DNA from: an uncultured Gammaproteobacteria bacterium
GTDB taxonomy: Bacteria; Patescibacteriota; Microgenomatia; UBA10105; UBA927
Assembly: GCA_964394685.1 (NCBI GenBank)
Contig: CAYMYO010000001.1
Location: forward strand, 14 to 64,013
DNA: 64,000 nt
Reading direction: 5' to 3'
This document shows positions 34,824 through 64,000 of the stretch, one piece after another. The first letter of the stretch is position 1, and every line of letters begins with the position of its first letter. The notes below the pieces were generated by a model. That model was not told the origin of the DNA and ran no database searches. It worked only from the letters and a program-made list of their open reading frames with translations. The position numbers and the translations under genes are program-made.

Positions 34824-35567
34824 ATGCAGGGATTAATTATAGCTGGAGGACTCGCGACACGTCTCCAACCGCTAACATTGGTTACCAATAAACATCTTCT
34901 GCCTGTTTATAATAAGCCGATGATTTATTACCCTATTGAGGCAATGAAACAAGCGGGTATTAAAGAGGTATTGTTGACCTCAGGAGGAGAAGCTATATCT
35001 CAATTTGCTAATTTATTAAAATCCGGTGAAGACTTCGGCATGCGGTTGTATTATGGCGTACAGAAAAATCCAAAAGGAGGAATTGCAGATGCAATCGCCG
35101 TAGCTGAGGAGTTTACGCGTGATGAACCGCTGCTTCTTATTCTTGGAGATAATATTTTTCATTTTAATCTGAAAGCTTCAGTTGAACGGTTTCTTCAAGT
35201 GCAAAAGAAAGGTGCAAAGGTATTTGGTGTTAGACTTAAAAATTTAGCCAAGCAGTATGGGGTTATTGAAATGGATAAATCAGGAAAAGTTCTTTCCATT
35301 GAGGAAAAGCCGGAACATCCAAAATCTGATATTGCTCAAATTGGAATTTATATGTATGACAAACGGGTATTTGATTTTATTCGAAAGCTCAAACCGTCTT
35401 CGCGGGGTGAACTTGAAGTGACAGATCTTAATAATATGTATTTACGGGATGGAACACTCACCTGTGAAGTGATTGATTGGTGGGTAGATGCTGGAACTTC
35501 ATTTGATGAACTACTGAGAGCAAATATTCAGGTAGCAGAGCATGTTAAGAAAGGATCTTCGATATGA
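34824..35567 (+). CDS. rmlA: Glucose-1-phosphate thymidylyltransferase.
   Basis: MQGLIIAGGLATRLQPLT...LILGDNIF; AGGAG RBS; ATG 34824. Confidence 0.9.
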   Translation: MQGLIIAGGLATRLQPLTLVTNKHLLPVYNKPMIYYPIEAMKQAGIKEVLLTSGGEAISQFANLLKSGEDFGMRLYYGVQKNPKGGIADAIAVAEEFTRDEPLLLILGDNIFHFNLKASVERFLQVQKKGAKVFGVRLKNLAKQYGVIEMDKSGKVLSIEEKPEHPKSDIAQIGIYMYDKRVFDFIRKLKPSSRGELEVTDLNNMYLRDGTLTCEVIDWWVDAGTSFDELLRANIQVAEHVKKGSSI

Positions 35568-36037
35568 TCGACGGAGTCATGACGAAGACATTAACAAGAC
35601 ATCCTGATGAACGGGGGTATTTTGAGGAAATAATCCGTGTGACGGATGACTTTTTTAAAGAAGGATTCGGACAGTTGTCCCATTCATATATGGTTGCGGG
35701 CGTTGTGAAAGCATGGCATCTTCATACAACACAAATTGATTGGTGGTTTTGTGTGACAGGGAAAATAAAAGCAGCTCTTTATGATAAACGACCAGATTCT
35801 TCCACCTACAAAGAAACGAATGAATTTATTTTGGGAGATGCTCCGGATAGCATCGTTCTTAAAATTCCAGCTGGTATCGCGCACGGAATGAAAGTGCTTG
35901 AAGAACCGTGTCATTTTGTTTACGCAACGAGCAAAATTTATAATCCTGAGGAAGAAGGAAGAATTAGCTATGATGATACAGATATTGGATACGATTGGGT
36001 GCAAGGAATCCCAATCACAAATACAAAAATTACTTAA
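35564..36037 (+). CDS. rmlC: dTDP-4-dehydrorhamnose 3,5-epimerase (cupin).
   Basis: ERGYFEE..., HSYMVAGVVKAWHLH: the RmlC cupin motifs. Confidence 0.85.
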   Translation: MIDGVMTKTLTRHPDERGYFEEIIRVTDDFFKEGFGQLSHSYMVAGVVKAWHLHTTQIDWWFCVTGKIKAALYDKRPDSSTYKETNEFILGDAPDSIVLKIPAGIAHGMKVLEEPCHFVYATSKIYNPEEEGRISYDDTDIGYDWVQGIPITNTKIT

Positions 36038-36040
36038 TCT

Positions 36041-37024
36041 ATGAAATTGCTTGTGACAGGCGGAGCTGGGTTTATTGGATCTAACTTTATTTTATATTGG
36101 CTTGGAAGCCACAAAGAAGATCAGATAGTAAATTTAGATAAGCTTACGTACGCTGGAAATCTTGAGAATCTCACAACTGTTGAGCATGATAAGCGCTATA
36201 CATTCATCCATGGTGACATTTGCAACCACGACGATGTAACCAAATCAATGCAAGGAGTGGATGTGATCGTTCATTTTGCGGCAGAAAGTCACGTCGACCG
36301 TTCAATATGTGAGGCTGCTCCATTTGTCTCAACAAACGTCGTTGGCACACACGTGTTACTTGAAGAAGCGATGAAACAAAAAGTAAAACGGTTCCATCAT
36401 GTGTCAACAGATGAAGTATTTGGATCATTGGAATTAGGATCAGAGCAAAAATTTAATGAGCATTCTGCCTATGATCCGCATAGTCCATATTCAGCAACAA
36501 AATCAGCCTCGGATCATTTAGTTCGTGCGTACTATCATACCTATGGACTTCCTATAACCATCACAAATTGTTCCAATAATTATGGTCCGTTTCAATTCCC
36601 GGAAAAATTTATTCCCCTTACAATAACGAATCTTATAGAAGGGAAGAAAATACCGTTATATGGTGATGGGTTAAATGTTCGGGATTGGCTATATGTAGAA
36701 GATCATTGTCGGGCCATTGATGCGGTTCTTCAAAAAGGCAGTATTGGGGAAACATATTGTATCGGCGGAGTTACAGAGGATATTAATAATCGAACAGTCA
36801 TTGATAAAATCCTGGCCTTTTTTGATACATCCGAATCAGAAATTGAGTATGTGAAAGATCGCCTTGGACACGACCGCAGATATGCTATTGACTGGTCAAA
36901 AATTCGTATTGAACTTGGTTGGAGTCCTGCGTATGATTTTGATGCAGGCTTAGAAAAAACAATTCTTTGGTATAAAGAACACGAATCATGGTGGAAAAAA
37001 TTAAAAACAAGGGGGAAACAATAA
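36041..37024 (+). CDS. rmlB: dTDP-glucose 4,6-dehydratase.
   Basis: MKLLVTGGAGFIGSNF, YSATKSASDHLVRAY (YxxxK). Confidence 0.95.
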   Translation: MKLLVTGGAGFIGSNFILYWLGSHKEDQIVNLDKLTYAGNLENLTTVEHDKRYTFIHGDICNHDDVTKSMQGVDVIVHFAAESHVDRSICEAAPFVSTNVVGTHVLLEEAMKQKVKRFHHVSTDEVFGSLELGSEQKFNEHSAYDPHSPYSATKSASDHLVRAYYHTYGLPITITNCSNNYGPFQFPEKFIPLTITNLIEGKKIPLYGDGLNVRDWLYVEDHCRAIDAVLQKGSIGETYCIGGVTEDINNRTVIDKILAFFDTSESEIEYVKDRLGHDRRYAIDWSKIRIELGWSPAYDFDAGLEKTILWYKEHESWWKKLKTRGKQ

Positions 37025-37911
37025 TGAATATCATTGGTACCGGCTTATCAGGATTGGTTGGATCGCGTGTTGTGGCCCTACTTTCAAATCACACATGTGA
37101 AGATTTGAGCTTAGAATCAGGAGTTGATATTACAAAATTTGATGAGGTAGAAAAAAGACTTACTGCCTCCACTGCTCCCTGGGTGCTTCATTTTGCGGCA
37201 TTTACTGATGTACAGGCAGCTGAAAAGGAAAAAGACAAAGGGAATGAGAGTATTTCATGGAAAGTGAACGTAGAAGCAACGAAAAACATTGCTTCACTAT
37301 GCCGGAGGCTCGGTAAACACATGCTGTATCTTTCAACAGATTATGTATTTGACGGTATTGCAGATTCATATAATGAAGAAGCGGTTGGTAATCCACAGGG
37401 GTGGTATGCGAAAACGAAATATGAGGGGGAGAAGATCGTAAAAGATTTGAAAGATTGTGGATTAGTAGTAAGGATTGCTAATCCTTACAGGGCAAATTCC
37501 AGTTGCCTGCCTGCCGGCAGGCAGGGCAAAAAGGATTTTATGCATAAGATCTTAGAAAGACTGCAACAAGGGCTTCCTATTGCAGCTCCCACCAATCAAA
37601 AAATGACAGCTACGTATATTGATGATTTAGCACATGGAATCGAGAAATTGATATCGATAAATGCCACAGGGGTATATAACATTCCCGGAGCTGATAGTTT
37701 TTCTCCATACGAAGGAGCCACGATGATTGCAGAAGTGTTTGGAATAGACCAAAAAAATATCTCACAAACAACATTTGAGGAATATTTTGCAAATCGTGCT
37801 CCGATTCCGCAATATGGAGTACTGACGCATGATAAAATTGAATCTCTCGGGATAAAGGTTCATACATTCCGTGAGGGATTAATTGAAATTAAACGGATGG
37901 AGGAGAAATAA
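37024..37911 (+). CDS. rmlD: dTDP-4-dehydrorhamnose reductase.
   Basis: MNIIGTGLSGLVGS...YAKTKYEGE; TAATG overlap with rmlB. Confidence 0.8.
   Translation: MNIIGTGLSGLVGSRVVALLSNHTCEDLSLESGVDITKFDEVEKRLTASTAPWVLHFAAFTDVQAAEKEKDKGNESISWKVNVEATKNIASLCRRLGKHMLYLSTDYVFDGIADSYNEEAVGNPQGWYAKTKYEGEKIVKDLKDCGLVVRIANPYRANSSCLPAGRQGKKDFMHKILERLQQGLPIAAPTNQKMTATYIDDLAHGIEKLISINATGVYNIPGADSFSPYEGATMIAEVFGIDQKNISQTTFEEYFANRAPIPQYGVLTHDKIESLGIKVHTFREGLIEIKRMEEK
37506..37525. repeat. 20-bp perfect GC-rich palindrome CCTGCCTGCCGGCAGGCAGG inside the rmlD coding sequence.
   Basis: Read directly from the sequence. It encodes LPAGRQ and sits in an AT-rich gene. Confidence 0.8.
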
Positions 37912-37912
37912 T

Positions 37913-39211
37913 ATGACTATTTCTTTTATTGGACATGGATATGTGGGACTTGTCACTGCTGCGGTTTTTGCGGATTTAGGCAATACCGTTTGGGTAGTGG
38001 GAAGAACAAAGGAAAAAATTGAAACGTTAAAAAAAGGAATCGCAACGTTTTATGAACCGGGACTATCGGAACTTGTCAAACGGAATGTTGACGCAGGGAG
38101 ACTGTTGTTTACCCTTGAGTATCATGAAGCAGTAGGGCCTTCAGAAATTATTTTTATTGCTGTTGGAACTCCGCCAAAGGAAAATGGAGAAGCCGATTTA
38201 ACAGAAGTGTTTAATGCGGCACGGGAAATAGGAAAAAATCTTTCGGGATATAAAGTAGTTTCGGTTAAAAGTACGGTTCCGCCTGGAACAAACAAAAAAG
38301 TAGCAGCAATAGTGGATGAGGTAAAACCAACGGGTTCATCATTTGCTATTGCTTCAGTACCGGAATTTTTGCGTCAAGGACAGGCAATTGCTGATACGAT
38401 GCACCCGCAACGGGTAGTCATTGGAACAACGTCTGATAGAGCGCAAAAGTTACTCGTGGATCTCCATAAGCCAATTAACACGAAAATAGTCTTATGTAAT
38501 GTCGAAACAGCTGAACTTATTAAATACGCTGCTAATTCGATGTTGTCAGTGAAAATTTCTTTCGCCAATGCGATGGCCATCTTGTCTGAAAAAGTTGGAG
38601 CTGATGTAGAAAAAGTACTTGATGGTGTTGGGCTGGACCAGCGAATTGGAAGAAGTTTTTTATATCCTGGAGTTGGATATGGGGGAAGTTGTTTCCCAAA
38701 AGATGTGAAAGCATTAATTACAATAGGAAAAGAGTATGGATATGATTTTACGCTTCTAAAAGCAACAGATGCGATCAATGATGAAGCCAGGTTGCATTTT
38801 ATAGAGAAAATTCAAAATCATTTTCATGGAAAGTTACAAGGAAAAACAATTGCTGTTTTGGGTCTTTCATTTAAACCAGATACCGATGACATGCGGTTTG
38901 CGCCATCAGTCACCATCATAGAAGTCCTGACAATGGGCGGAGCAAAGGTAGTTGTATATGATCCGGTTGCAATAGAAAACGCAAAAAAGGTATTACCCAA
39001 GAATGTTATATTTGCAGCTTCTTCATATGATGCGGTAAAGGACGCTGATGCGGTCGCGGTTCTTACGGAGTGGAATGAGTTTCGGCAGTTGGATATGGTG
39101 AAAATCGCTAAGGGGTTAAAAGAACGGGTATTATTTGACGGACGGAATATCTATGATCCTCAAACCATGAAGGATTTGGGGTATACCTACTATGGAGTAG
39201 GTCGGATGTGA
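37913..39211 (+). CDS. ugd: UDP-glucose / nucleotide-sugar 6-dehydrogenase.
   Basis: MTISFIGHGYVGLV, GGSCFPKDV (catalytic Cys), GLSFKPDTDD. Confidence 0.85.
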   Translation: MTISFIGHGYVGLVTAAVFADLGNTVWVVGRTKEKIETLKKGIATFYEPGLSELVKRNVDAGRLLFTLEYHEAVGPSEIIFIAVGTPPKENGEADLTEVFNAAREIGKNLSGYKVVSVKSTVPPGTNKKVAAIVDEVKPTGSSFAIASVPEFLRQGQAIADTMHPQRVVIGTTSDRAQKLLVDLHKPINTKIVLCNVETAELIKYAANSMLSVKISFANAMAILSEKVGADVEKVLDGVGLDQRIGRSFLYPGVGYGGSCFPKDVKALITIGKEYGYDFTLLKATDAINDEARLHFIEKIQNHFHGKLQGKTIAVLGLSFKPDTDDMRFAPSVTIIEVLTMGGAKVVVYDPVAIENAKKVLPKNVIFAASSYDAVKDADAVAVLTEWNEFRQLDMVKIAKGLKERVLFDGRNIYDPQTMKDLGYTYYGVGRM

Positions 39212-39227: not shown

Positions 39228-40187
39228 ATGATTATAAAAAAGGCACTTATAACAGGTATTGCAGGATTTGTCGGAAGTCATTTGGCGGAACTCCTCTTAT
39301 CAAAGGGATTTGAAGTATATGGGTTATCAAGGCCCAGGTCAAGAATGGATCATATTGAAGCAATTAAAGATAAACTTCATCTTGAAGATGCTGATATATT
39401 AGATTCCCATAGTTTATACGGAACAATATCCCGCATCAAACCGGATTATATATTTCACCTTGCTGCTCAGTCATTTGTTCCCACTTCTTGGGTGTCTCCA
39501 TCTGTAACTTTAGAAGTCAATATTATTGGGTCTGCGAATTTATTCGAAGCAGCCCGTCAGGCAAAGATTGATTGTACAATCCAAATTGCGTGTTCATCAG
39601 AAGAATATGGGTTAGTGCATCCGGATGAGACTCCTATTAAAGAAACAAATCCTCTTCGTCCGCAAAGTCCATACGGAGTATCAAAAGTAGCAATGGACTA
39701 TCTTGGATATCAGTATTTTTGTTCCTATGGTATGAAAATTATCCGAACCCGTGGCTTTAATCACACAGGACCCAGACGTGGAGAAACGTTCGTAACATCA
39801 AATTTTGCAAAGCAAATTGCGATGATTGAAAAAGGAAAACAAGAACCCGTTATGAAAGTAGGCAATGTAGAGGCAATCCGCGATTGGACAGATGTTCGGG
39901 ATATGGTAAAAGGATATTTGCTTTCGGTTGAAAGATGCGATGCAGGAGATGTATATAATATCTGTACTGGAAAAGGGGTAAAAGTACAAGACATGTTACA
40001 TATACTTCTTGGTATGAGTAAGGCTAAAGTTGAAATTATTCAAGATCCAAGCCGCATGCGTCCGTCCGAAGTTCCAGTTCTTGTTGGAGATAACTCCAAA
40101 TTTGTTGCAAAAACAGGTTGGAAGCCGGAAATACCATTTGAAAAAACAATGGAAGACCTTCTTAATTATTGGAGAGAACGGGTATAA
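39228..40187 (+). CDS. NAD-dependent sugar-nucleotide dehydratase/epimerase of the SDR family, most similar to GDP-mannose 4,6-dehydratase.
   Basis: ALITGIAGFVGSHL, YGVSKVAMDYLGYQY (YxxxK), FNHTGPRRGETF. Confidence 0.7.
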   Translation: MIIKKALITGIAGFVGSHLAELLLSKGFEVYGLSRPRSRMDHIEAIKDKLHLEDADILDSHSLYGTISRIKPDYIFHLAAQSFVPTSWVSPSVTLEVNIIGSANLFEAARQAKIDCTIQIACSSEEYGLVHPDETPIKETNPLRPQSPYGVSKVAMDYLGYQYFCSYGMKIIRTRGFNHTGPRRGETFVTSNFAKQIAMIEKGKQEPVMKVGNVEAIRDWTDVRDMVKGYLLSVERCDAGDVYNICTGKGVKVQDMLHILLGMSKAKVEIIQDPSRMRPSEVPVLVGDNSKFVAKTGWKPEIPFEKTMEDLLNYWRERV

Positions 40188-40192
40188 ACGGT

Positions 40193-41314
40193 ATGAATCT
40201 GGTTATTATCCTTCCCACGTATAATGAGCGGGAAAATATCGAAACTTTACTTGATGCTCTTCATAAAGAAGCGAAGGATATTTCACACCACACATTTCTC
40301 TATCTAATTGTTGATGACTTTTCCCCTGATGGTACAGGGAATATTATACGAACCTACCAAAAAAAACATAAAGATACATATCTTTTAGAAGAAAAAAAGG
40401 AAGGACTTGGCAAAGCGCTTCTTCGAGGAATGACGTACGCGGTAGACAAATTGCATGCGGATTTTATTCTCCAAATGGACTGTGATTTATCGCATGACCC
40501 TGCGAGAGTTCCTGCATTTATTAAAGAAGTTGATAAGGGTGCAGATTTTGTGGTCGGAAGCCGATATATCAAAGGTGGATCAATTCCATCCAATTGGGGA
40601 ATTCATCGAAAAATATTTAGCGTTGCTGGTAATGCCATTGTTCGGTTTGGACTTGGATATAGCCATGTTCATGATTGGACAGGTGGATTTCGGGCTTATG
40701 CAGTGAAATATTATTACGAATTAAAAGATCAGATGGAAGCGTATGGAGGGTATGTATTTCAAATAGCGTTTTTACATAAAGCAATTTCCCATGGAGCCCA
40801 TGTCGTTGAAGTTCCCATTCATTTTACGGATCGTAAATTCGGTCATTCAAAAATTGCACCGGCTGAATATATCAAAAACGTTTTGCTGTATGTGGGAACT
40901 GCACGGTTACAGGCCATTGTGCGTGGCCCCTTTGGGAAGTTTCTGATTGTCGGTGGATTTGGATTTGTTATTAACGCTGGATTGCTTGTTATTCTTCGTG
41001 AATGGATGGGGTTGTCGCCAACAATTGCCAACCTTATCGGAGCAGCTGCAGCTATATTTTCTAATTTTAATTTGAACAATGTATGGACGTTTAAAAAAAA
41101 GAAAATTATTTCTTTTGGTACGTATTTGGCAAAATTAGCTCAATTTTATGGAACCTCACTATTTGGAGTTATTGTTATACAAACAGGAACGATCGCTCTT
41201 GGAGTGAGACTGTTCGGAGATAGTCAATATTTTATCTATTTCTTGGTTGGAACCGCATCTCTTCTTATTTGGAATTACACCATGTATTCAAAAATTATCT
41301 GGAAAAAAAAGTGA
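40193..41314 (+). CDS. Polyprenol-phosphate glycosyltransferase (GT2, DPM1/ArnC-like) fused to a GtrA-like membrane domain.
   Basis: LVIILPTYNERENI, VDDFSPDGT, DCDLSHDP; the C-terminal four TM helices are GtrA-like. Confidence 0.75.
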   Translation: MNLVIILPTYNERENIETLLDALHKEAKDISHHTFLYLIVDDFSPDGTGNIIRTYQKKHKDTYLLEEKKEGLGKALLRGMTYAVDKLHADFILQMDCDLSHDPARVPAFIKEVDKGADFVVGSRYIKGGSIPSNWGIHRKIFSVAGNAIVRFGLGYSHVHDWTGGFRAYAVKYYYELKDQMEAYGGYVFQIAFLHKAISHGAHVVEVPIHFTDRKFGHSKIAPAEYIKNVLLYVGTARLQAIVRGPFGKFLIVGGFGFVINAGLLVILREWMGLSPTIANLIGAAAAIFSNFNLNNVWTFKKKKIISFGTYLAKLAQFYGTSLFGVIVIQTGTIALGVRLFGDSQYFIYFLVGTASLLIWNYTMYSKIIWKKK

Positions 41315-41322
41315 TTTGTCAT

Positions 41323-43609: not shown

Positions 43610-43616
43610 AAATTTT

Positions 43617-44759: not shown

Positions 44760-44769
44760 ATATTTAACT

Positions 44770-57321: not shown

Positions 57322-58048
57322 CGCCATAATAATTGCGAAAAACGAAGAAGCCCGGATAGCGGAGTGTATAAAGAGTGTCGGCTGGGTCGATGAAGTCATT
57401 GTTGTTGACAACGGTTCAATGGATGCAACAGCGGAAGTTGTAAAGAAACTGAAAGTGGATCTCATTATAGATACGATGCAGGATTTTGCTTCCATCAGGG
57501 ATAAAGGAGCATCGGTTGCACACGGAACGTGGCTTCTGTATGTTGATGCTGATGAGACGGTGACGGAACAACTGAAAAAAGAAATTTTGAGAATTAGTAC
57601 ATCACCGTCTTCCGATGCGGCATATTTTATTTCCAGGAAAAATTATTATCTGGGTCATGAGTGGCCGACAAAAGACAAAATGATACGGCTTATCAAAAAA
57701 GACGCGCTTATTTCCTGGGTAGGGAAGCTGCATGAACACCCCGAAATACGGGGAAACATCGGAGATCTGAAAGAACCGTTACTCCATGACACTCATAGAA
57801 CGCTTTCTGAAATGGTTACTAAAACAAATGAGTGGTCTGAAGTTGAGGCGGATTTACGGTTATGTGCAAATCACCCTCACATGGTAACATGGAGATTTTT
57901 TCGAGTTATGGGATCTGCATTTTGGAAATCCTATATTAGTGAAGGTGGTTGGAAAGCGGGAATTGTTGGATGGATAGAAAGTATCTATCAGGCATTTAGT
58001 ATGTTTATTACCTATGCAAAGCTATGGGAAAAACAACAAAAAACATAA
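57299..58048 (+). CDS. GT2 glycosyltransferase; paralog of the gene at 55484-56395.
   Basis: ISAIIIAKNEE, VVDNGSMDAT, YVDADETV; the C-terminal region parallels the 55484 gene. Confidence 0.75.
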   Translation: MSQKKSISAIIIAKNEEARIAECIKSVGWVDEVIVVDNGSMDATAEVVKKLKVDLIIDTMQDFASIRDKGASVAHGTWLLYVDADETVTEQLKKEILRISTSPSSDAAYFISRKNYYLGHEWPTKDKMIRLIKKDALISWVGKLHEHPEIRGNIGDLKEPLLHDTHRTLSEMVTKTNEWSEVEADLRLCANHPHMVTWRFFRVMGSAFWKSYISEGGWKAGIVGWIESIYQAFSMFITYAKLWEKQQKT

Positions 58049-60342
58049 TTCAATGGGTCACACGTTTGTGGCCGGTTATCGTTCTTGTCTGTTTTGTCGG
58101 AATATTTTCATTACCGTATATAACAAAAGGGCTCATTCCTTTTCCCTCTAAATACCTCGTCACCTTTTTTGCTCCGTGGAATGCGTCTTACGGGATGCCT
58201 GTAAAAAATAACGCCATGCCGGATGTTATAACTCAGATCTATCCATGGAAGGCGCGTACGATCGATTCATGGAAACAAGGTCAATTTCCGCTTTGGAATC
58301 CATACGCATTTGCGGGTACTGCTCACGCAGCAAACTATCAGACAGCGGTGTTTAATCCAATAAACCTATTATTTTTTGTTCTGCCTTTTATTGACGCGTG
58401 GAGCTTTATGATTCTTCTCCAACCACTTCTTGCAGCCCTGGGAACATATCTATTTCTTCGCGCTCTTGACAGGTCGCAAGTCGCATCACTCATTGGATCT
58501 ATCGGATTTATGTTTTGCGGTTTTATTACCACATGGATGGCATACGGAACACTGGGGTATGCGGCACTCGCGTTGCCATGGATTTTATGGTCAATTGCAA
58601 TAAATTTTAGGAAACATTCCGTCTTAGGGAGAATAACACTTCCCATATTTGTTGCGATTTCTTTCCTCTCCGGGCATTTTCAAATTAGCTTGTATGTGGG
58701 TATTGCAGCAATACTATTTATTTGTTTTGAAGGATGGCAAAAAAGAAATTGGAAAGAAGTCATTTACTCATTGTTAGGTGTCGTTATCGGAATTGGATTT
58801 GCGGCGCCGCAATTGCTTCTTACGTATCATGCATATAGTGCATCAACACGTACAGATAGTTTTATTCGTTCAGAAGTTATCCCATGGAGCTATCTTATTA
58901 CACTCTTTTCGCCTGATTTCTTCGGAAATCCGGTAACAAGAAACGATTGGTTTGGTCATTACGCAGAATGGGGATCGTATGTAGGTATTGTACCTCTTAT
59001 ACTTTCGATTACCGCTTTGTTTGTATCTTTGAAGGGGTACAAAAAATATTTTCTTTTTCTTATCGGTATAACGATACTATTGGCATTTCCAACTCCTATA
59101 TCTGATATTCTTTTTCGATTGAGAGTTCCAATTCTTTCAACAAGTGCCGCTTCGCGGATTATTTTTCTTCTCAGTTTTGGGATTATCGGATTAGCGTCTT
59201 TTGGCATTGATGAGCTTATTGTTGTGTGGAAGGAAAAGAATAAAAAATTCTTACTGCCGCTTGTTATTGGATGTGCCATTTTCCTTTTCGTTTTTTGGAT
59301 GATGGTGCTCGGTGTTAAGCCGTTTCCTATTGACAAGCTCATTATCGCAAAGCGAAATATTATATTGCCGACGGCGTTAACTTTCATAACTCTCATTATT
59401 GTGATAACTGGATTTATCAGGAAATACAAACTACAGACAATTCTTCTCGCATTTCTATTAGGCATTGGTATGTTTGACATGTATCGTTATGCAACTAAAT
59501 GGATGCCGTTTGAAGAGAAAAAATATCTGTATCCCGAGTCAACTTCAATAGCATATGTAAGAAAAAACATCGATTTTAACCGTGTATTTGGAAATATCGG
59601 TGGAGAAGTAGGGAATATGTATCAACTTCCGCTCATTGAAGGATATGATGCGATGTACCAAGCGAGATACGGGGAATTTATTGGTGCTTCATCCAATGGA
59701 ATTGTCGCTCCTGCAGGAAGATCGGTAGTATCGTTTGATAAATATGGGAGATTTAACAGTGATGTGCTCCAGTTATTAGCTGTTCGGTATATCTATCAAA
59801 GAAAGAGTGATGGAAGAAATGTGTGGGCATTTCCCGTTTGGCAGTATCCAGACGGCGATATGGTGAAACGATTTGAAGATGAACATTATGAAGTATATGA
59901 ATATACTCGTGCATACCCTCGCGCGTTTTTAACTTCATCTTATGAAGTACGACGCGATCCGCAGGAAATAATTGATACACTTTTTAGAAATGACTTTGAT
60001 AGAAGAAATACACTTGTTCTTGAAGAAGAACCAAGTATTAAACCGATGCAAGGAGAAGGTGTTGCAAAAATTGCAAAGTATGAAGCAAATAGCGTAGTGA
60101 TTCAAACAAATAGCACAGTGCCGAAATTATTATTCTTATCCGATGTATATGATGACGGATGGGAAGCAACGATTGACGGAAAGAAGACAAAAATATACCT
60201 GGCAGATTATGATTTTCGAGCCGTTAGTGTCCCAGCTGGTATGCATACGATAGAATATAGATACCATCCGATAGAATTTCGCATTGGTCTGTTGGTTGCT
60301 TTTATAAGCGTTATTGTATTGGGCATTACACTACTATTATGA
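58024..60342 (+). CDS. YfhO-family membrane protein (GT-C-like glycosyltransferase).
   Basis: WNPYAFAGTA, LFSPDFFGNP; about 13 TM helices plus a C-terminal beta domain ending in a TM helix. Confidence 0.6.
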   Translation: MGKTTKNIIQWVTRLWPVIVLVCFVGIFSLPYITKGLIPFPSKYLVTFFAPWNASYGMPVKNNAMPDVITQIYPWKARTIDSWKQGQFPLWNPYAFAGTAHAANYQTAVFNPINLLFFVLPFIDAWSFMILLQPLLAALGTYLFLRALDRSQVASLIGSIGFMFCGFITTWMAYGTLGYAALALPWILWSIAINFRKHSVLGRITLPIFVAISFLSGHFQISLYVGIAAILFICFEGWQKRNWKEVIYSLLGVVIGIGFAAPQLLLTYHAYSASTRTDSFIRSEVIPWSYLITLFSPDFFGNPVTRNDWFGHYAEWGSYVGIVPLILSITALFVSLKGYKKYFLFLIGITILLAFPTPISDILFRLRVPILSTSAASRIIFLLSFGIIGLASFGIDELIVVWKEKNKKFLLPLVIGCAIFLFVFWMMVLGVKPFPIDKLIIAKRNIILPTALTFITLIIVITGFIRKYKLQTILLAFLLGIGMFDMYRYATKWMPFEEKKYLYPESTSIAYVRKNIDFNRVFGNIGGEVGNMYQLPLIEGYDAMYQARYGEFIGASSNGIVAPAGRSVVSFDKYGRFNSDVLQLLAVRYIYQRKSDGRNVWAFPVWQYPDGDMVKRFEDEHYEVYEYTRAYPRAFLTSSYEVRRDPQEIIDTLFRNDFDRRNTLVLEEEPSIKPMQGEGVAKIAKYEANSVVIQTNSTVPKLLFLSDVYDDGWEATIDGKKTKIYLADYDFRAVSVPAGMHTIEYRYHPIEFRIGLLVAFISVIVLGITLLL

Positions 60343-61373
60343 AAATCGGATTATATAACCCCTATTTTGATTCATTTGGCGGAGGAGAGCGATATATGCT
60401 CACCCTAGGGGAACATTGGTCAAAAACTCATGACGTATCAATTTTTTGGGATGACAATACTATTATTGATACGTCCCAAAAAAGGTTCAAATTAGATTTA
60501 TCCAGGATAACAGTTGTACCGAATATATTTAAAAACGGATCTCTCATTAAAAAAATGTTGGTATCTGCTACGTATGATTGTATTGTGTTTTTAAGTGACG
60601 GAAGTGTTCCAATGTCCTTAGCTAAGCATAATATACTTCATTTTCAAGTTCCTTTTTCAAACGTCTCCATAAACAGCTGGAAAAAAAGTAGATATCAGCG
60701 GGTTGTGTGTAACTCAAAGTTTACCCAAAGACATTTGGATGCAACGATAGGAATTCCGACAACGGTTATTTATCCTCCTGTAGCAAATGAGGAATTTCAA
60801 GTTGCTATGAAAGAGAATGTCATAGTTTCAGTCGGACGGTTTAACGGTCATTACAACGTCAAGAAGCAGGATGTATTGATAGAAGTATTTATAGATATGG
60901 TAAAAGAACGAAAGTTAGCCGGGTGGAAATTGGTTTTAACTGGAGGCATGCTTCCGACCGATAAGGAATATGTAGAGAAATTGAAAAAGTTGAGTAAAAA
61001 CTATCCCATTGAAATTATTTCCAACGCGTCATTTGAAAAAATCCAATCCTTGTACGGGCTAGCTCGTCTGTATTGGCATGGAGCGGGATTTGAAGAAATG
61101 AAACCGGAACATATGGAGCATTTTGGCATATCAACCGTTGAAGCAATGTCTTCCGGATGCGCCCCAATCGTGTTTGCAGGTGGCGGACAGACGGAAATAG
61201 TGACGGATGGTGTAAACGGATATACATGGAAAACAAAAAAAGAACTTATGCATAAAACAATGATGGCAATCAAAAATGAAAGCATTATGAGCAGTAAAAT
61301 TACACAAAGATCGAAAGATTTTTCCAAAAACATTTTTAATCAGGCGTTCGACGATTTACTCAAATTGTTATGA
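60339..61373 (+). CDS. GT4 (GT-B fold) glycosyltransferase.
   Basis: EHFGISTVEAMSSGCAPIVF is the E-x7-E motif. Confidence 0.8.
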   Translation: MKIGLYNPYFDSFGGGERYMLTLGEHWSKTHDVSIFWDDNTIIDTSQKRFKLDLSRITVVPNIFKNGSLIKKMLVSATYDCIVFLSDGSVPMSLAKHNILHFQVPFSNVSINSWKKSRYQRVVCNSKFTQRHLDATIGIPTTVIYPPVANEEFQVAMKENVIVSVGRFNGHYNVKKQDVLIEVFIDMVKERKLAGWKLVLTGGMLPTDKEYVEKLKKLSKNYPIEIISNASFEKIQSLYGLARLYWHGAGFEEMKPEHMEHFGISTVEAMSSGCAPIVFAGGGQTEIVTDGVNGYTWKTKKELMHKTMMAIKNESIMSSKITQRSKDFSKNIFNQAFDDLLKLL

Positions 61374-63574
61374 GGAAATACCTGTATGACTTTCTTGGAA
61401 TTGCAGTAATTGCTTGCATCGTCTTAGTATTTTTTTATAAAACGATTATTTACGGATTATTACCTGTCCCATCAGATACGCTCATTGGTTTATATCATCC
61501 ATATCGTGATGCATATCTCAATGAATTTACCAGAGGCGTACCATTTAAAAATTTTCTTATTACCGATCCAGTGAGGCAACAAATTCCATGGAGGAAACAA
61601 GTAATTGAATATTGGAAAAAAGGTACACTTCCTTCCTGGGATGCATGGAGTTTTTCTGGAACGACACTTGTTGGTAATATTCAAGCCGGATCATTTTACC
61701 CATTAAATATTTTATTTTTCTTATTTTCTTTTCCAGTTGCATGGTCGCTTCTTATTATTAGTCAACCACTTCTTGCCGGAATATTTTTGTATGTATTCTT
61801 ACGAAATAAAAAACTTGATATCATTCCGTCACTTATTGGAAGCATTGCATTCGCCTTTGGAGGCTATTCCATGTCCTGGCTTACATGGGGAACTATTGTC
61901 TCGACATTCCTTTGGACTCCGCTCATGTTTTTTGCGGTTGACAAAATTCACTTAGAGAAAAAAAGCTGGAAATGGAAAATAGTATTATTGTTTGCTCTGA
62001 CATTCTCATTTTTTGCCGGTCATTTGCAGTTTTTTATATACGGTGTTGTGTTTGTGATCTGGTATGCGTTCTGGGAATATTGGAAACCTCGTATATGTAA
62101 AATTACATGGTGGCATGGAATAATACCCGTTCTTTTTTTTCTTATCATAGGAGTGCAATGGATTCCTTTACTCCGATTTTTACCGATGACATCAAGAGTA
62201 GCAGGAGCTGCGTACCTACATGAGGGGTTTTTTGTTCCAATTGTGCATCTCATTCAATTTATTTCACCTGATTATTTCGGTAACCCAGCGACACTTAATT
62301 ACTGGGGTGTATGGAATTATGGAGAAATGACAGGATATGTAGGAGTCATCGTATTAACATTGGCTCTTCTTGGAATTGGAAAGAAGACTCTTATTTGGGT
62401 TATTCCAATTATTATTTCGTTGATTTTTGCAGTGGACTCGCCGATTAGTAGATTACCTTTTGTTCTTCATATACCGGGCATTTCTCTATTTCAGCCAACA
62501 CGTCTCATTATTGTTGTGGGTTTGTGTTTATCAATTCTTGCAGCATACGGAGCATCAAAGATATTTTTATTGTCAAAAAAGCAGAGAATTTTGACATTGG
62601 CAGTTATTGGTTGTTTGTTTGTTGTAGCATGGTTATTTGGAGAAAATCCCGTGACCCGCCGAAACTTAGTACTTCCGACCGTTTTGTATACGGTTTCTGT
62701 GATTGCTGTTGTCATATCGCTGTTTGCAGGAAAATGGAAATGGCTTCAAACAGTTCTTTTGTTATTGTTTTTTACAGTGAATATTTTTGATTTACTCCGC
62801 TTCGGATGGAAATTTACGTCATTTACGAGTTCGTCATATTTTTTTCCAGAGACAACAACCATTTCATTTCTAAAACAACAACCACAACCATTCCGCGTTA
62901 TGGTTTTAGATGACCGCGCATTACCGCCAAATGTTTTGACGTATTATGGAATTGAATCTGTCAGCGGATATGATCCCATTCATAGTTCGCGGTACGAAGA
63001 ATTTATTGCAGCCATGGAACGGGGAGAACCGAATATCACACCACCATTTGGATTTGAACGAATTATAACGCCAAAAAATTACTCATCTCCGCTATTTAAT
63101 CTATTAGGAGTCAAATATGTGATCACAATGAAGCAAATAAACAGTCCAAAGTTGAAGTTGATGCTTCAAGAAGGAGAAACCATTGTATACAAGAATAGTG
63201 ATTTTTCTCCACGAGCCTATTTGGCTGATACCATTTTCGTTAAAAAAATCAAACAGGACATAATTAATGGGTTGTATGATAAAAATTTTATTCCAGGTAA
63301 AACAGCAATTATTGAAAAAGAATTGCCTATAATCAGCGCACCTATTTTTATTTCTGAAGGAGTGTCGATTACTTCATATGCTCCAAATAAGATGACGTTG
63401 GATGTTACAGTTTTGAATAATCGATTACTCGTAATTGGAAATATGTTTAATCCGGGTTGGAAGGTGATGATTGATGGAAAAAAGACCGAAGTATATAAAA
63501 CCAACTATTTATTCTTCGGTGTTACTGTTCCCTCCGGAATGCATAAGATTGATATAATGTATACATCTTTATGA
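61370..63574 (+). CDS. YfhO-family membrane protein; paralog of the gene at 58024-60342.
   Basis: WDAWSFSGTT, FISPDYFGNP; the same architecture. Confidence 0.6.
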   Translation: MRKYLYDFLGIAVIACIVLVFFYKTIIYGLLPVPSDTLIGLYHPYRDAYLNEFTRGVPFKNFLITDPVRQQIPWRKQVIEYWKKGTLPSWDAWSFSGTTLVGNIQAGSFYPLNILFFLFSFPVAWSLLIISQPLLAGIFLYVFLRNKKLDIIPSLIGSIAFAFGGYSMSWLTWGTIVSTFLWTPLMFFAVDKIHLEKKSWKWKIVLLFALTFSFFAGHLQFFIYGVVFVIWYAFWEYWKPRICKITWWHGIIPVLFFLIIGVQWIPLLRFLPMTSRVAGAAYLHEGFFVPIVHLIQFISPDYFGNPATLNYWGVWNYGEMTGYVGVIVLTLALLGIGKKTLIWVIPIIISLIFAVDSPISRLPFVLHIPGISLFQPTRLIIVVGLCLSILAAYGASKIFLLSKKQRILTLAVIGCLFVVAWLFGENPVTRRNLVLPTVLYTVSVIAVVISLFAGKWKWLQTVLLLLFFTVNIFDLLRFGWKFTSFTSSSYFFPETTTISFLKQQPQPFRVMVLDDRALPPNVLTYYGIESVSGYDPIHSSRYEEFIAAMERGEPNITPPFGFERIITPKNYSSPLFNLLGVKYVITMKQINSPKLKLMLQEGETIVYKNSDFSPRAYLADTIFVKKIKQDIINGLYDKNFIPGKTAIIEKELPIISAPIFISEGVSITSYAPNKMTLDVTVLNNRLLVIGNMFNPGWKVMIDGKKTEVYKTNYLFFGVTVPSGMHKIDIMYTSL

Positions 63575-64000
63575 AAATACCTACGGTTTCTATAGTTATT
63601 CCTAATTGGAATGGTGTGTATCTCATGGAGAAGCATCTCCAGCATGTTATGGATCGAACTCCTGGGGCAGAGATTATCATTGCAGATGATGTATCCTCAG
63701 ATGGATCAGTTGATTATCTCAAAAAGAATTTCCCGCATGTTATTGTGGTGTCAAGCAAGAAAAGACAAGGATTTGCCGGGAACGTCAATGCAGGAGTGGC
63801 GCGATCAACCGGTGAGATTGTGATTCTATTAAATACTGATGTAGAACCTGAAAAAGGATTCTTGCAACCGCTCTTGTCTCATTTTGATGACCCTGGCGTA
63901 TTTGCTGTTGGATGTTTAGAAAAAAGTTGGGAAAATGGCAAAGCTGTGCTTCGAGGACGTGGTATTGCTTCGTGGGAAAAAGGTTTTTATGTTCATAAGC
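63571..64000 (+). CDS. GT2 glycosyltransferase, 3'-truncated by the window edge.
   Basis: ATGA overlap with the upstream stop; VSIVIPNWNG, IADDVSSDGS, LLNTDVEPE. Confidence 0.7.
   Translation, partial: MKIPTVSIVIPNWNGVYLMEKHLQHVMDRTPGAEIIIADDVSSDGSVDYLKKNFPHVIVVSSKKRQGFAGNVNAGVARSTGEIVILLNTDVEPEKGFLQPLLSHFDDPGVFAVGCLEKSWENGKAVLRGRGIASWEKGFYVHK

What the first reader, a model, noticed from the sequence alone, without database searches (positions are those of the whole stretch)
34824..64000. At least 29-kb surface-glycosylation locus with paralog expansion of GT-C-type membrane glycosyltransferases
After rmlA, rmlC, rmlB, rmlD, ugd and a gmd-like gene comes a run of about 20 same-strand genes: seven GT2 enzymes (one fused to GtrA), one GT4, a Wzx flippase, ArnT-like and other predicted GT-C-type membrane glycosyltransferases, two PTPS-related-domain membrane proteins, two YfhO-like proteins, and large uncharacterised polytopic proteins. 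One of these, at 47032-48597, is the only reverse-strand gene and abuts the convergent gene to its left with only a 3-nt spacer. Paralog pairs are 55484/57299, 50199/51695 and 58024/61370. This is not a classic Wzy-dependent O-antigen cluster: no Wzy, Wzz or initiating PGT was recognised. It looks instead like polyprenol-phosphate-sugar donors (the DPM1-like GT2 enzymes) feeding several extracytoplasmic GT-C transferases. That combination would suit protein (for example S-layer or pilin) glycosylation, or glycosylation of teichoic-acid-like polymers, in a CPR-type envelope.
Basis: partly seen in the sequence, partly recalled or inferred. Interest (0 to 1): 0.55.

Follow-up and report, generated by a model that had tools for sequence, protein, structure and literature searches.

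The report
Conserved CPR surface-glycan locus rich in GT-C enzymes
This is a real, tightly packed surface-sugar locus of an uncultured ultrasmall (CPR, Microgenomates) bacterium. It lacks the usual starter and polymerase enzymes, probably builds its glycan on lipid-monophosphate carriers using at least eight membrane GT-C transferases, and has a core that is conserved in dozens of related genomes.

Summary
Window 34.5-64 kb holds rmlACBD, ugd, an Rmd/GMD-family reductase, seven GT2s (one fused to GtrA), one GT4, one Wzx and a run of polytopic proteins.

New findings:
1. Only three GT2s are polyprenol-phosphate-sugar synthase-like. The other four, and the GT4, are soluble elongating types.
2. 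The reverse-strand gene has a predicted ArnT-like GT-C fold and belongs to a family with no Pfam model. That makes eight GT-C-type genes.
3. The 758-aa "polytopic" protein is not a GT-C. It is a membrane-anchored extracytoplasmic glycoside-hydrolase/deacetylase-fold protein.
4. These two genes form a precise 3.9-kb, low-GC insertion. It is absent from all twelve related metagenome contigs (48-86% identical flanking proteins) that span the junction.
5. The block GT-C, DPM1-like GT2, Wzx, GT2, GT2, GT2, YfhO, GT4, YfhO, GT2 keeps its order across up to 76 of 80 Microgenomates loci. The paralogs are therefore ancient, not a recent expansion.
6. No PGT, Wzy, Wzz or LCP was found in the window or in the neighbourhoods of 80 relatives.

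[quoted passage not shown] Its core may assemble an oligosaccharide on polyprenol monophosphate, as in the Lactococcus PSP pathway. The acceptor is unknown.

The parts
34549..34797 (+). 82-aa small membrane protein with about three predicted hydrophobic segments; probable first gene of the locus; function unknown
   Evidence: ORF, sequence. Lies between the CAP-domain gene and rmlA in relatives at 37-99% identity. No Pfam family.
34788..37911 (+). rmlA, rmlC, rmlB, rmlD (dTDP-L-rhamnose synthesis)
   Evidence: Pfam NTP_transferase 1.3e-53, dTDP_sugar_isom 1e-25, GDP_Man_Dehyd/Epimerase 1.6e-80, RmlD_sub_bind 1.4e-47.
37883..39211 (+). ugd (UDP-glucose 6-dehydrogenase family)
   Evidence: All three UDPG_MGDP_dh domains, E 1.8e-57 / 2.1e-36 / 2.1e-32.
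39228..40187 (+). GMD/RMD-family SDR, closest to GDP-6-deoxy-D-lyxo-4-hexulose reductase (Rmd)
   Evidence: PDB 2pk3 E 4.5e-95. NCBIfam gmd 195.8 bits, below the 415-bit cut-off.
40169..41314 (+). GT2 (polyprenol-P-sugar synthase-like) fused to a GtrA flippase domain
   Evidence: Pfam Glycos_transf_2 1.1e-23 plus GtrA_DPMS_TM 2.2e-17. NCBIfam best hits PgfS, Dol-P hexose transferase, ArnC and AglJ, all below cut-off.
41269..42849 (+). PMT_2 / ArnT-like GT-C, 10 predicted TM; forms a three-component system with the gene before it
   Evidence: PMT_2 37.3 bits against cut-off 26.1. TM count. The pair and the sugar-nucleotide genes stay linked in relatives down to 40-53% identity (L101-L105).
42854..43609 (+). 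251-aa TM-less GT2, polyprenol-P-sugar synthase-like
   Evidence: NCBIfam PgfS 3.9e-22, ArnC 1.7e-16, Dol-P hexose transferase 1.1e-15, all below cut-off. 27% identical to 53301.
43581..44759 (+). 11-TM GT87/MptA-like GT-C (weak assignment)
   Evidence: Pfam GT87 E 0.0015, below cut-off. NCBIfam alpha-(1->6)-mannopyranosyltransferase A E 2.4e-10, far below cut-off.
44760..48651 (.). 3.9-kb insertion carrying the next two genes; absent from the closest relatives
   Evidence: In the twelve related metagenome loci that span this junction (L087-L089, L091-L094, L096-L098, L106-L107; flanking proteins 48-86% identical) the GT87-like gene is followed directly by the PMT_2 gene. tblastn finds no trace of either inserted gene in L087-L112. 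Breakpoints come from the DNA alignments. Gene GC is 0.338 and 0.331 against a window mean of 0.395. No flanking repeats.
44770..47028 (+). Membrane-anchored extracytoplasmic glycoside-hydrolase/deacetylase-fold protein: N-terminal TM helix, (beta/alpha)7-barrel-like domain, beta-sandwich, 5-6 TM helices and a C-terminal alpha/beta domain
   Evidence: AF2 pLDDT 92. Foldseek top hit 3lm3 E 1.2e-12, followed by CE4 deacetylases, GH38 and GH57. The 58-sequence alignment has no invariant His but many invariant Asp, Glu, Trp and Tyr. K/R residues before TM1 imply an outside-facing domain. 146 homologs found, none with a Pfam family except DUF3863 on two distant ones; the few that carry taxon names are mostly CPR.
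47032..48597 (-). Predicted ArnT-like GT-C-fold glycosyltransferase of a family without a Pfam model; the only reverse-strand gene
   Evidence: AF2 pLDDT 91.6. Foldseek top hits are ArnT 5f15 (prob 1.00, TM 0.46), ALG3, Pmt4, GPI-MT-I and Pmt1/2. Invariant G40-C-F-D-D-C45 just after the first long helix. hhalign against PMT_2-like proteins gives 66% probability, E 5.7e-5. The family has 482 clusters at 50% identity with E<=1e-10.
48598..48687 (.). 90-nt AT-rich divergent intergenic region; probable restart promoter for the downstream genes
   Evidence: Sequence. Promoter-like TTAACA-16-TATTAT on the + strand at 48588-48615. Such matches are not enriched over shuffles, so this evidence is weak.
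48688..50193 (+). PMT_2 / ArnT-like GT-C
   Evidence: PMT_2 E 4.4e-15, 56.7 bits.
50199..53323 (+). Two PTPS_related-family GT-C paralogs (50199-51698 and 51695-53323)
   Evidence: PF10131 29.8 bits against cut-off 26.4 for the second gene. Paralogy E 1e-36. Family profile against the YfhO profile: hhalign 99.5%, E 1.2e-22. Asp31, just after TM1, is conserved in 61 sequences.
53301..54044 (+). GT2a: 247-aa TM-less DPMS/GtrB/ArnC-like polyprenol-P-sugar synthase; first gene of the GT2a-to-GT2c run of the conserved core
   Evidence: The only PDB sequence hits are polyprenol-P GT2s: DPMS 5mlz E 4.4e-16, GtrB 5ekp, ArnC. No TM. Conserved D97-x-D99. Lies immediately upstream of Wzx in 47 of 52 testable loci.
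53983..55482 (+). Wzx / MOP-family flippase (true start probably 54037, giving 481 aa as in relatives)
   Evidence: Polysacc_synt_3 4.8e-47. NCBIfam MOP flippase 2.1e-27 and O-glycosylation flippase 3.9e-25, below cut-offs. Present in 58 of 80 loci.
55484..58048 (+). Three soluble GT2s: GT2b1 (55484-56395), GT2c1 (56392-57321; rhamnosyl-/galactofuranosyl-transferase-like) and GT2b2 (57278-58048)
   Evidence: Pfam. PDB hits cover only the nucleotide-binding half or are GlfT-like. NCBIfam rhamnosyltransferase subfamily E 2.7e-16, below cut-off. The order GT2b-GT2c-GT2b is kept in 48 of 80 loci.
58024..60342 (+). YfhO-family GT-C (YfhO1)
   Evidence: PF09586 91.6 bits against cut-off 28.5. 12 predicted TM.
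60339..61373 (+). GT4 (GT-B) glycosyltransferase
   Evidence: Glycos_transf_1 1.2e-20. Present in 78 of 81 loci; GT4-YfhO adjacency in 76 of 80.
61370..63574 (+). YfhO-family GT-C (YfhO2)
   Evidence: PF09586 110.6 bits. Asp66 in the first extracytoplasmic loop is conserved in 154 homologs.
63571..64000 (+). GT2c2, cut by the end of the window (about 300 aa in relatives)
   Evidence: Glycos_transf_2 9.4e-22. The 299-aa ortholog in L006 is 82% identical.

Best explanation
The region is a chromosomal envelope-glycan locus of a Microgenomates (CPR) bacterium. It works through polyprenol-monophosphate-linked sugars and extracytoplasmic GT-C transferases, not through a PGT/Wzy pathway.

Proposed steps:
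1. rmlACBD, ugd and the Rmd-like reductase supply dTDP-L-rhamnose, UDP-glucuronate and a GDP-6-deoxyhexose.
2. Three DPM1/GtrB/ArnC-like GT2s (40169, 42854, 53301) load sugars onto polyprenol phosphate at the inner face of the membrane.
3. The fused GtrA domain and the Wzx flip these lipids to the outer face.
4. Eight GT-C-type enzymes then transfer the sugars outside the cell: two PMT_2, one GT87-like, two PTPS_related, two YfhO and the unannotated ArnT-fold protein.

For the conserved core (PTPS_related GT-C, GT2a, Wzx, GT2b, GT2c, GT2b, YfhO, GT4, YfhO, GT2c) the most economical reading copies the Lactococcus PSP pathway. GT2a primes polyprenol-P. The four soluble GT2s and the GT4 extend it to an oligosaccharide. 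Wzx flips it. The YfhO and PTPS_related enzymes polymerise it and/or attach it to its acceptor.

The ectoenzyme at 44770-47028 would trim or remodel the product. It arrived together with an extra GT-C as a 3.9-kb accessory insertion.

Shown: gene families, predicted folds, conserved catalytic-type residues, synteny, the insertion, and the local absence of PGT and Wzy.

Inferred: the lipid chemistry, the order of the reactions, the sugar identities and the acceptor.
For: - Family assignments.
- GT2a matches only polyprenol-P glycosyltransferases in the PDB and has no TM. WpsA and GacI are likewise GT2s that use C55-P as acceptor, and WpsA has no predicted TM (PMC10821137).
- GT2a lies directly upstream of Wzx in 47 of 52 testable loci. 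The full ordered core is present in 37 of 80 loci and GT4-YfhO in 76 of 80.
- The core has five soluble GTs but no ABC exporter and only one flippase.
- No PGT, Wzy_C, Wzz or LCP in the window, nor among representatives of the unassigned membrane-associated neighbour families of 80 related loci.
- The GT-C character of the membrane proteins rests on Pfam PMT_2, YfhO and PTPS_related above their cut-offs; PTPS_related against YfhO hhalign 99.5%; conserved Asp in the first loop; and an ArnT-like predicted fold for the reverse gene.
- Precedents: a C55-P-linked repeat unit flipped by a Wzx-type flippase and handled by GT-C enzymes (PMC10821137); Wzx-type GacK flipping GlcNAc-P-C55; YfhO and PMT_2 GT-Cs in three-component systems (PMC8035078).
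Against: - No biochemical data exist for any of these proteins.
- All NCBIfam matches are far below the curated cut-offs, so no enzyme is an equivalog of a characterised one.
- No WpsB/GacJ-like activator was recognised next to GT2a.
- A PGT could be encoded elsewhere in the genome. Only 64 kb of it was readable, and the source contig could not be fetched.
- Some relatives carry a roughly 990-aa protein containing Wzy_C in a different glycan locus (L083, L084).
- GT2a, Wzx and the PTPS_related GT-C could equally be a stand-alone GacI/K/L-type single-sugar decoration unit.
Confidence: 0.55

Rival explanations
1. This is a conventional Wzx/Wzy-type pathway whose initiating PGT (and LCP ligase) are encoded elsewhere. 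The soluble GT2s and the GT4 would build an Und-PP-linked repeat unit, Wzx would flip it, and one of the divergent polytopic proteins would act as the Wzy polymerase. The DPM1-like GT2s and GT-Cs would only add side-chain sugars.
For: - A Wzx plus five soluble GTs is the normal content of such loci.
- Wzy enzymes are very diverse and are often missed by HMMs.
- Relatives carry a Wzy_C-containing protein in another glycan locus.
- Only 64 kb of the genome could be inspected.
Against: - No PGT, Wzy_C, Wzz or LCP in the window or within +/-10 kb of the core in 80 relatives.
- Both previously unassigned membrane proteins resolve to other folds.
- The DPM1-like GT2a is glued to Wzx in 47 of 52 loci. 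That fits a monophosphate-primed route better.
Confidence: 0.2
2. The locus is mainly a protein-glycosylation machine, like Pgf/PgtC2 in streptococci or the Dol-P-based Agl pathway of Haloferax. The YfhO, PMT_2 and PTPS_related enzymes would O-glycosylate (or N-glycosylate) Ser/Thr/Pro-rich regions of surface proteins, pili or an S-layer. This rival concerns the acceptor and overlaps mechanistically with the best explanation.
For: - YfhO-family enzymes glycosylate Ser/Thr-rich disordered regions of membrane proteins (PMC12041528).
- NCBIfam best hits of the DPM1-like GT2s include PgfS and AglJ. The YfhO1 C-terminus matches PgfM2 (E 5e-7), and Wzx matches an 'O-glycosylation flippase' model (E 3.9e-25). 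All are below cut-off.
- A secreted, C-terminally anchored protein with a 45-aa Pro/Thr-rich stalk lies 5 kb upstream (29546-30304).
Against: - No STT3/PglB/PglL-type oligosaccharyltransferase family was detected.
- No acceptor protein is encoded inside the locus.
- Arrays of up to nine different polytopic GT-C-like genes per 22 kb fit stepwise polymer building better than protein decoration.
- rml-rich loci are typical of cell-wall polysaccharides (PMC9574508, abstract seen).
Confidence: 0.25
3. The genes are several independent three-component single-sugar decoration systems that happen to sit together. The soluble GT2s and the GT4 would make an unrelated cytoplasmic product, for example a glycolipid anchor.
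For: - Module 40169/41269 (GT2-GtrA plus PMT_2) is self-contained. It stays linked to the sugar-nucleotide genes in distant relatives that lack the rest of the locus (L103-L105).
- B. subtilis carries several separate GT-A/GT-C pairs (PMC8035078).
Against: - The strict order of ten core genes, with 4-nt overlaps between many of them, across dozens of genomes argues for one pathway.
- There are more GT-Cs (8) than lipid-sugar synthases (3).
Confidence: 0.15

Closest known systems
Lactococcus lactis/cremoris PSP (wps) 'dual-chain' pathway (PMC10821137)
   Same: - A TM-less DPMS-like GT2 that uses polyprenol-P as acceptor.
[quoted passage not shown]
- rml genes in the same locus.
- No dedicated PGT or classical Wzy for this chain.
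   Different: - No WpsB/GacJ-type activator was recognised.
- The GT-Cs here belong to the YfhO and PTPS_related families, and there are many more of them.
- No rhamnan ABC-exporter branch is present in the window.
- The organism is a CPR bacterium.
- All sequence matches are remote, and the chemistry is untested.
Three/four-component transmembrane glycosylation systems (GtrA/B/C; CsbB-GtcA-YfhO; GacI/J/K/L) (PMC8035078)
   Same: - A GT2 makes a C55-P-sugar, a GtrA- or Wzx-type flippase flips it, and a PMT_2- or YfhO-type GT-C transfers it outside.
- The pair 40169/41269 is a textbook example, with the flippase fused to the GT2.
   Different: Here at least three such synthases and eight GT-Cs are concentrated in one locus and are interleaved with five soluble GTs.
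Mycobacterial/corynebacterial LM/LAM and arabinogalactan assembly by serial GT-C enzymes (MptA/B, Emb, Aft; papers listed)
   Same: - Many different GT-C enzymes fed by polyprenol-P-sugars extend a polymer outside the membrane.
- One window gene is weakly MptA/GT87-like.
   Different: - Those genes are scattered in actinobacterial genomes and act on PI- or decaprenyl-PP-anchored primers.
- No close homology was found here.
Streptococcal Pgf / GtrB-PgtC2 protein O-glycosylation (PMC12041528)
   Same: A GT-A synthase plus YfhO-type GT-Cs acting outside the cell. PgfS and PgfM2 are the best NCBIfam names for some of the window proteins.
   Different: Scores are far below the equivalog cut-offs (48.5-78.8 bits against 500; 28 bits against 1500). 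No adhesin substrates are encoded in the locus, and the gene set here is much larger.
Wzx/Wzy-dependent O-antigen or capsule locus
   Same: rml genes, a Wzx and several soluble GTs on one strand.
   Different: PGT, Wzy and Wzz were tested and not found. The GT-C load is atypical for such loci.
Arn (lipid A L-Ara4N) pathway
   Same: The gene run ugd, SDR, ArnC-like GT2, small flippase (GtrA domain here), ArnT-like GT-C at 37883-42849.
   Different: No ArnA formyltransferase, ArnB aminotransferase or ArnD deformylase. The SDR is Rmd-like. No lipid A is expected in this organism (general knowledge of CPR bacteria, not tested here).

Membership tests
Wzx/Wzy-dependent O-antigen/capsule pathway | Wzx (MOP) flippase | tested here: met
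   Polysacc_synt_3 E 4.8e-47; NCBIfam MOP flippase E 2.1e-27.
Wzx/Wzy-dependent O-antigen/capsule pathway | Wzy polymerase (Wzy_C / O-antigen polymerase families) | tested here: not met
   No hit at E<=0.01 in any window protein. The two unassigned proteins have GH/deacetylase and ArnT-like predicted folds. None among neighbour families of 80 loci. Caveat: Wzy enzymes are diverse.
Wzx/Wzy-dependent O-antigen/capsule pathway | Initiating phosphoglycosyl transferase (PF00953 or PF02397) | tested here: not met
   Absent from the proteins of the window's 65 called ORFs that were scanned and from the neighbour families. The rest of the genome could not be read.
Wzx/Wzy-dependent O-antigen/capsule pathway | Wzz/PCP chain-length regulator | tested here: not met
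   No Wzz family hit.
Three-component GtrA/GtrB/GT-C glycosylation system | GT2 of the polyprenol-P-sugar synthase type | tested here: met
   40169, 42854 and 53301 have best matches to DPMS, GtrB, ArnC, AglJ and PgfS. This is homology only; activity was not tested.
Three-component GtrA/GtrB/GT-C glycosylation system | GtrA-family flippase | tested here: met
   PF04138 63.8 bits against cut-off 26.1, fused to GT2 40169.
Three-component GtrA/GtrB/GT-C glycosylation system | Adjacent GT-C membrane transferase | tested here: met
   PMT_2 37.3 bits against cut-off 26.1 at 41269.
Lactococcal PSP-type C55-P oligosaccharide pathway | TM-less DPMS-like initiator GT2 next to a Wzx-type flippase | tested here: met
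   No TM; DPMS E 4.4e-16; adjacency in 47 of 52 loci.
Lactococcal PSP-type C55-P oligosaccharide pathway | Small membrane activator (WpsB/GacJ) | tested here: inconclusive
   None lies next to GT2a. The conserved 82-aa small membrane protein at 34549-34797 has no Pfam match.
Lactococcal PSP-type C55-P oligosaccharide pathway | Repeat unit built on a monophosphate-linked lipid and handled by GT-C enzymes | not testable with these tools
   Needs LC-MS of lipid intermediates, as in PMC10821137.
YfhO family (PF09586) | Pfam score above gathering threshold and polytopic topology | tested here: met
   91.6 and 110.6 bits against cut-off 28.5; 12 and 10 predicted TM.
GT-C fold (reverse gene 47032-48597) | GT-C architecture, with acidic residues in the first extracytoplasmic loop | tested here: met
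CE4 polysaccharide deacetylase (protein 44770-47028) | Asp-His-His metal-binding triad | tested here: not met
   The fold is similar, but there is no invariant or nearly invariant His in the 58 homologs. A metal-dependent CE4 is therefore unlikely; the residues look hydrolase-like.
dTDP-L-rhamnose pathway | RmlA, RmlB, RmlC and RmlD all present | tested here: met
Arn pathway | ArnA, ArnB and ArnD in addition to Ugd, ArnC and ArnT | tested here: not met
   No aminotransferase, formyltransferase or deformylase family in the window. ArnC model 51.7-60.1 bits against a 529-bit cut-off.

The most novel reading that the evidence does not exclude
Microgenomates as a lineage share a PGT-independent and Wzy-independent assembly line. 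In it an oligosaccharide is built on polyprenol monophosphate, flipped by Wzx, and then polymerised, attached and further elaborated outside the cell by a battery of six to nine or more GT-C enzymes (YfhO, PTPS_related, PMT_2 and at least one unannotated GT-C family). The product would be the major envelope polymer of these ultrasmall bacteria. This would be a CPR counterpart of lactococcal PSP or mycobacterial LAM/AG, with accessory GT-C and glycan-hydrolase cassettes swapped between genomes to vary the surface.
Probability: 0.3. Interest if true: 0.65.

Novelty: new variant of a known kind. Interest (0 to 1): 0.5.

Why it matters
Almost nothing is known experimentally about the cell envelope of CPR/Patescibacteria outside the Saccharibacteria, although their surface must mediate attachment to hosts.

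This locus gives a concrete gene set, conserved across the sampled Microgenomates relatives. It has a ten-gene core followed by variable GT-C arrays, and it may make a major surface glycan.

It would extend the recently recognised polyprenol-monophosphate route (C55-P in Lactococcus) for oligosaccharide assembly beyond lactic acid bacteria. It also adds two families that have no Pfam model of their own: an ArnT-fold GT-C with about 480 clusters at 50% identity, and a membrane-anchored GH/deacetylase-fold ectoenzyme.

The 3.9-kb indel between near-identical loci is a natural experiment in surface variation. Such variation could relate to phage or host recognition.

Tried and rejected
- **Source contig.** Fetching it to look past 64 kb failed. 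Exact-protein look-ups found only a 4.4-kb Logan contig, or nothing. Relatives were used instead (L006, L025, L087-L097).
- **CE4 deacetylase reading of the 758-aa protein.** I considered an ArnD/LgmB-like role and rejected it because no conserved His exists.
- **Upstream ABC-2 transporter (14829-16545).** I considered it as a Wzm/Wzt-type glycan exporter. It is DrrA/NodI-like and lies 18 kb away, so I did not adopt it.
- **Mobile-element signatures around the insertion.** There are no terminal direct or inverted repeats above background.
- **Promoter and terminator scans.** They are not enriched over shuffles. Only a weak promoter-like site supports a restart in the 90-nt gap.
- **82-aa membrane protein as a GacJ/WpsB (DUF2304) homolog.** No support.
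- **Literature.** Searches for a description of this cassette in CPR found nothing. The library is limited to open-access papers.
- **PDB sequence searches of the two unknown proteins.** They gave no hits.

Full report
**1. Checking the observation**

- Sugar-nucleotide genes: rmlA, rmlC, rmlB, rmlD, ugd and an SDR occupy 34788-40187.
- Seven GT2s follow: 40169 (fused to a GtrA domain), 42854, 53301, 55484, 56392, 57278 and the truncated 63574.
- There is one GT4 (60339) and one Wzx (53983/54037-55482).
- Membrane proteins: two PMT_2 proteins (41269, 48688), a weak GT87/MptA-like protein (43581), a PTPS_related protein (51695) with its paralog (50199), and two YfhO proteins (58024, 61370).
- The three paralog pairs are real but old: 37%, 27% and 31% identity.
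- The reverse gene is 47032-48597, and the 3-nt spacer is exact.

The rest of the window (1-34.5 kb) is housekeeping: HflX-like GTPase, YceG, LysRS/AsnRS-type and SerRS synthetases, SecA, RuvB, RF, FtsEX, an M23 peptidase, Sua5 and TsaE. It contains no PGT, LCP, Wzz, Wzy or Wzm/Wzt.

**2. Sorting the GT2s**

Three GT2s match polyprenol-phosphate glycosyltransferases.
- GT2a (53301) hits only DPMS (5mlz, E 4.4e-16), GtrB and ArnC in the PDB.
- The best NCBIfam names for 40169, 42854 and 53301 are PgfS, Dol-P hexose transferase, ArnC and AglJ. All are well below the equivalog cut-offs.
- 42854 and 53301 have no TM segment. WpsA, which makes GlcNAc-P-C55, also has none (PMC10821137).

The other four GT2s match soluble enzymes. 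The matches cover only the N-terminal halves of GmaR, SunS and TarS, or are GlfT- and rhamnosyltransferase-like.

The SDR at 39228 is closest to Rmd (2pk3, E 4.5e-95). No separate GMD lies in the window.

**3. The two unassigned proteins**

Both families have many homologs, no Pfam model of their own, and source names that say only 'hypothetical protein'. The few homologs that carry a taxon label are mostly Levybacteria, Parcubacteria or Patescibacteria. AF2 models built on 58-sequence alignments are confident (pLDDT 92.0 and 91.6).

Protein 44770-47028:
- It has an N-in signal-anchor helix.
- This is followed by an extracytoplasmic (beta/alpha)7-barrel-like domain. The domain resembles 3lm3, a 'putative glycoside hydrolase/deacetylase' (E 1.2e-12), and then CE4, GH38 and GH57 enzymes.
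- A beta-sandwich, 5-6 TM helices and a C-terminal alpha/beta domain complete the protein.
- The family has no conserved His but many invariant Asp, Glu, Trp and Tyr residues. I read it as a glycan hydrolase or remodelling ectoenzyme, not a metal-dependent deacetylase and not a GT-C.

The reverse gene (47032-48597):
- Its best structural match is ArnT (prob 1.00, TM 0.46). The next meaningful matches are ALG3, Pmt4, GPI-MT-I and Pmt1/2.
- It carries an invariant GCFDDC motif right after the first long helix. That is the position where GT-C enzymes carry their catalytic acidic residues (own knowledge; compare PMC12041528 on the loop DXD motif).
- A profile comparison with the local PMT_2-like family is marginal (66% probability, E 5.7e-5).
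- A profile search of 1.84 billion representative proteins finds a compact family: 482 clusters at E<=1e-10 and 560 at E<=1e-3.

The PTPS_related and YfhO families are clearly homologous (hhalign 99.5%, E 1.2e-22). Each keeps an Asp in the first extracytoplasmic loop. The window therefore encodes eight GT-C-type proteins.

**4. Comparison with relatives**

A genome-collection scan with YfhO2 returned 80 loci. Every record title that names a specific taxon is CPR: Gottesman-, Levy- and Roizmanbacteria, Microgenomates, Patescibacteria, a few Saccharimonadales/Saccharibacteria and one Parcubacteria. Two titles say only 'bacterium'. Many TPA records are titled 'uncultured Gammaproteobacteria', which is evidently a placeholder.

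Clustering their ORFs with the window proteins shows a conserved ordered core: PTPS_related GT-C, GT2a, Wzx, GT2b, GT2c, GT2b, (YfhO), GT4, YfhO, GT2c.
- GT4-YfhO is adjacent in 76 of 80 loci.
- GT2a lies directly upstream of Wzx in 47 of the 52 loci where this can be tested.
- The full ordered core is present in 37 loci. Contig ends limit the remainder.

Downstream of the core lie variable arrays of polytopic proteins. These include a PMT_2-like family in up to five tandem copies, further YfhO and PTPS_related genes, DUF2079, and families without Pfam models. The 41 loci longer than 21 kb carry a median of 8 such genes (range 6-9).

In a relative whose end-of-window proteins are 76-82% identical, the matching contig continues for at least 10 kb beyond the point where the window ends. 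That stretch holds four or five more such genes (L006).

I scanned representatives of every unassigned membrane-associated neighbour family. None belongs to a PGT, Wzy_C, Wzz or LCP family.

**5. The insertion**

A metagenome scan with PMT_2 41269 found 26 loci. The closer ones have proteins 50-96% identical to the window's. They are collinear with the window from Sua5 and the CAP-domain gene, through the rml genes, ugd and rmd, to the core. The exception is that the GT87-like gene is followed directly by PMT_2b.

tblastn finds no trace of the two extra genes in any of these loci.

DNA alignments place the breakpoints immediately after the GT87-like stop codon (44757-44759) and at 48652, 36 nt upstream of the PMT_2b start. 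The inserted segment is therefore 44760-48651.
- It carries the GH-like ectoenzyme, the reverse GT-C, and most of the 90-nt divergent spacer.
- Its genes have the lowest GC in the locus (0.338 and 0.331 against a mean of 0.395).
- No flanking repeats were found.

This explains the orientation anomaly and the 3-nt convergent spacer. It also implies that the genes from 48688 onward need their own promoter. A weak candidate lies at 48588-48615.

Elsewhere the two families travel with glycan genes.
- In L082-L084 they lie on the same strand, three or four genes apart. A small GT2 and SDRs lie between them, and in L083 and L084 a roughly 990-aa protein containing Wzy_C lies further downstream.
- The ectoenzyme sits directly after Wzx inside the core in L060, L073 and L074.
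- The closest homolog of the reverse gene sits in a YfhO/PMT array (L113).

**6. Mechanism**

The safest statement is that this is a multi-component transmembrane glycosylation locus of the kind reviewed in PMC8035078. GT2s make polyprenol-P-sugars, GtrA- or Wzx-type flippases move them across the membrane, and GT-C enzymes transfer them outside the cell. I hold this with high confidence.

For the core, I favour the Lactococcus PSP logic, which has been shown experimentally for its first steps (PMC10821137). A DPMS-like GT2 primes C55-P, soluble GTs extend the repeat unit, a Wzx-type flippase exports it, and GT-C enzymes polymerise and attach it. This accounts for four observations:
- five soluble GTs with a single flippase and no ABC exporter;
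- the tight GT2a-Wzx linkage;
- more GT-Cs than lipid-sugar synthases;
- the consistent local absence of PGT and Wzy.

I hold this part with moderate confidence. A PGT elsewhere in the genome cannot be excluded, no activator protein was found, and nothing has been tested biochemically.

The acceptor is open: a wall polymer, a lipoglycan or proteins. A secreted, membrane-anchored protein with a Pro/Thr-rich stalk lies just upstream (29546-30304) and is a candidate O-glycosylation substrate. This is only a lead.

**7. Novelty**

The component families and the general mechanism are known. What appears to be undescribed in the literature I could search is:
- the conserved cassette across the sampled Microgenomates;
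- its extreme density of GT-C genes;
- the two families without a Pfam model of their own;
- the accessory indel.

I class the finding as a new variant of a known kind, of moderate interest.

Noticed in passing
window 29546-30304 (+): A 252-aa protein with a signal peptide, a roughly 45-aa Pro/Thr-rich repeat stalk ([38 protein letters not shown]) and a C-terminal TM anchor followed by a basic tail. It has no Pfam family. It is conserved at the same position in relatives (52-71% identity). It is a plausible O-glycosylation substrate lying 5 kb upstream of the locus.
   Followed up: partly
window 34549-34797 (+): An 82-aa small membrane protein with about three predicted hydrophobic segments, immediately upstream of and overlapping rmlA. 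In close relatives it is more conserved than its neighbours (up to 99% identity), and it keeps its position down to 37% identity. It has no Pfam family. It could be an activator or flippase subunit for the TM-less GT2s.
   Followed up: partly
L012-type record titles (e.g. L002-L008): Many TPA MAG records ('binchicken', 'SRPxxxx_co') are titled 'uncultured Gammaproteobacteria bacterium'. Yet they carry the same Microgenomates cassette as records named Gottesman- or Levybacteria. The titles look like placeholders or mislabels.
   Followed up: no
L083 10001-13951; P0010-P0012, P0018: In some genomes the GH/deacetylase-fold ectoenzyme is fused to an N-terminal extension of about 600 aa, giving 1279-1319 aa in total. 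The extension has no Pfam family and no similarity to any window protein.
   Followed up: partly
L083 21374-23951; L084 20452-22271: Relatives that carry the ectoenzyme and reverse-GT-C families in a different glycan locus also encode a protein of about 990 aa with a Wzy_C (O-antigen ligase/polymerase) domain. No such protein is present in the window.
   Followed up: no
window 31584-31961 (+): A 125-aa ORF matches only positions 25-84 of the 264-position TsaD model. It lies next to Sua5 and TsaE and is conserved in relatives at 37-73% identity. It may be a truncated TsaB/TsaD-like protein.
   Followed up: no
window 32092-32703 (+): A 203-aa nucleotidyltransferase with weak AbiEii / aminoglycoside-NTase matches (E about 3e-4). 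It is not seen at this position in the syntenic relatives (L087-L096), so it may be a small accessory insertion just upstream of the glycan locus.
   Followed up: no
L101, L103-L105: In more distant relatives, ugd is followed by three different Rmd/RmlB-like SDRs before the GT2-GtrA and PMT_2 pair. The rest of the window's locus is absent there. This suggests that sugar-nucleotide genes, GT2-GtrA and PMT_2 form an older, separable module.
   Followed up: partly
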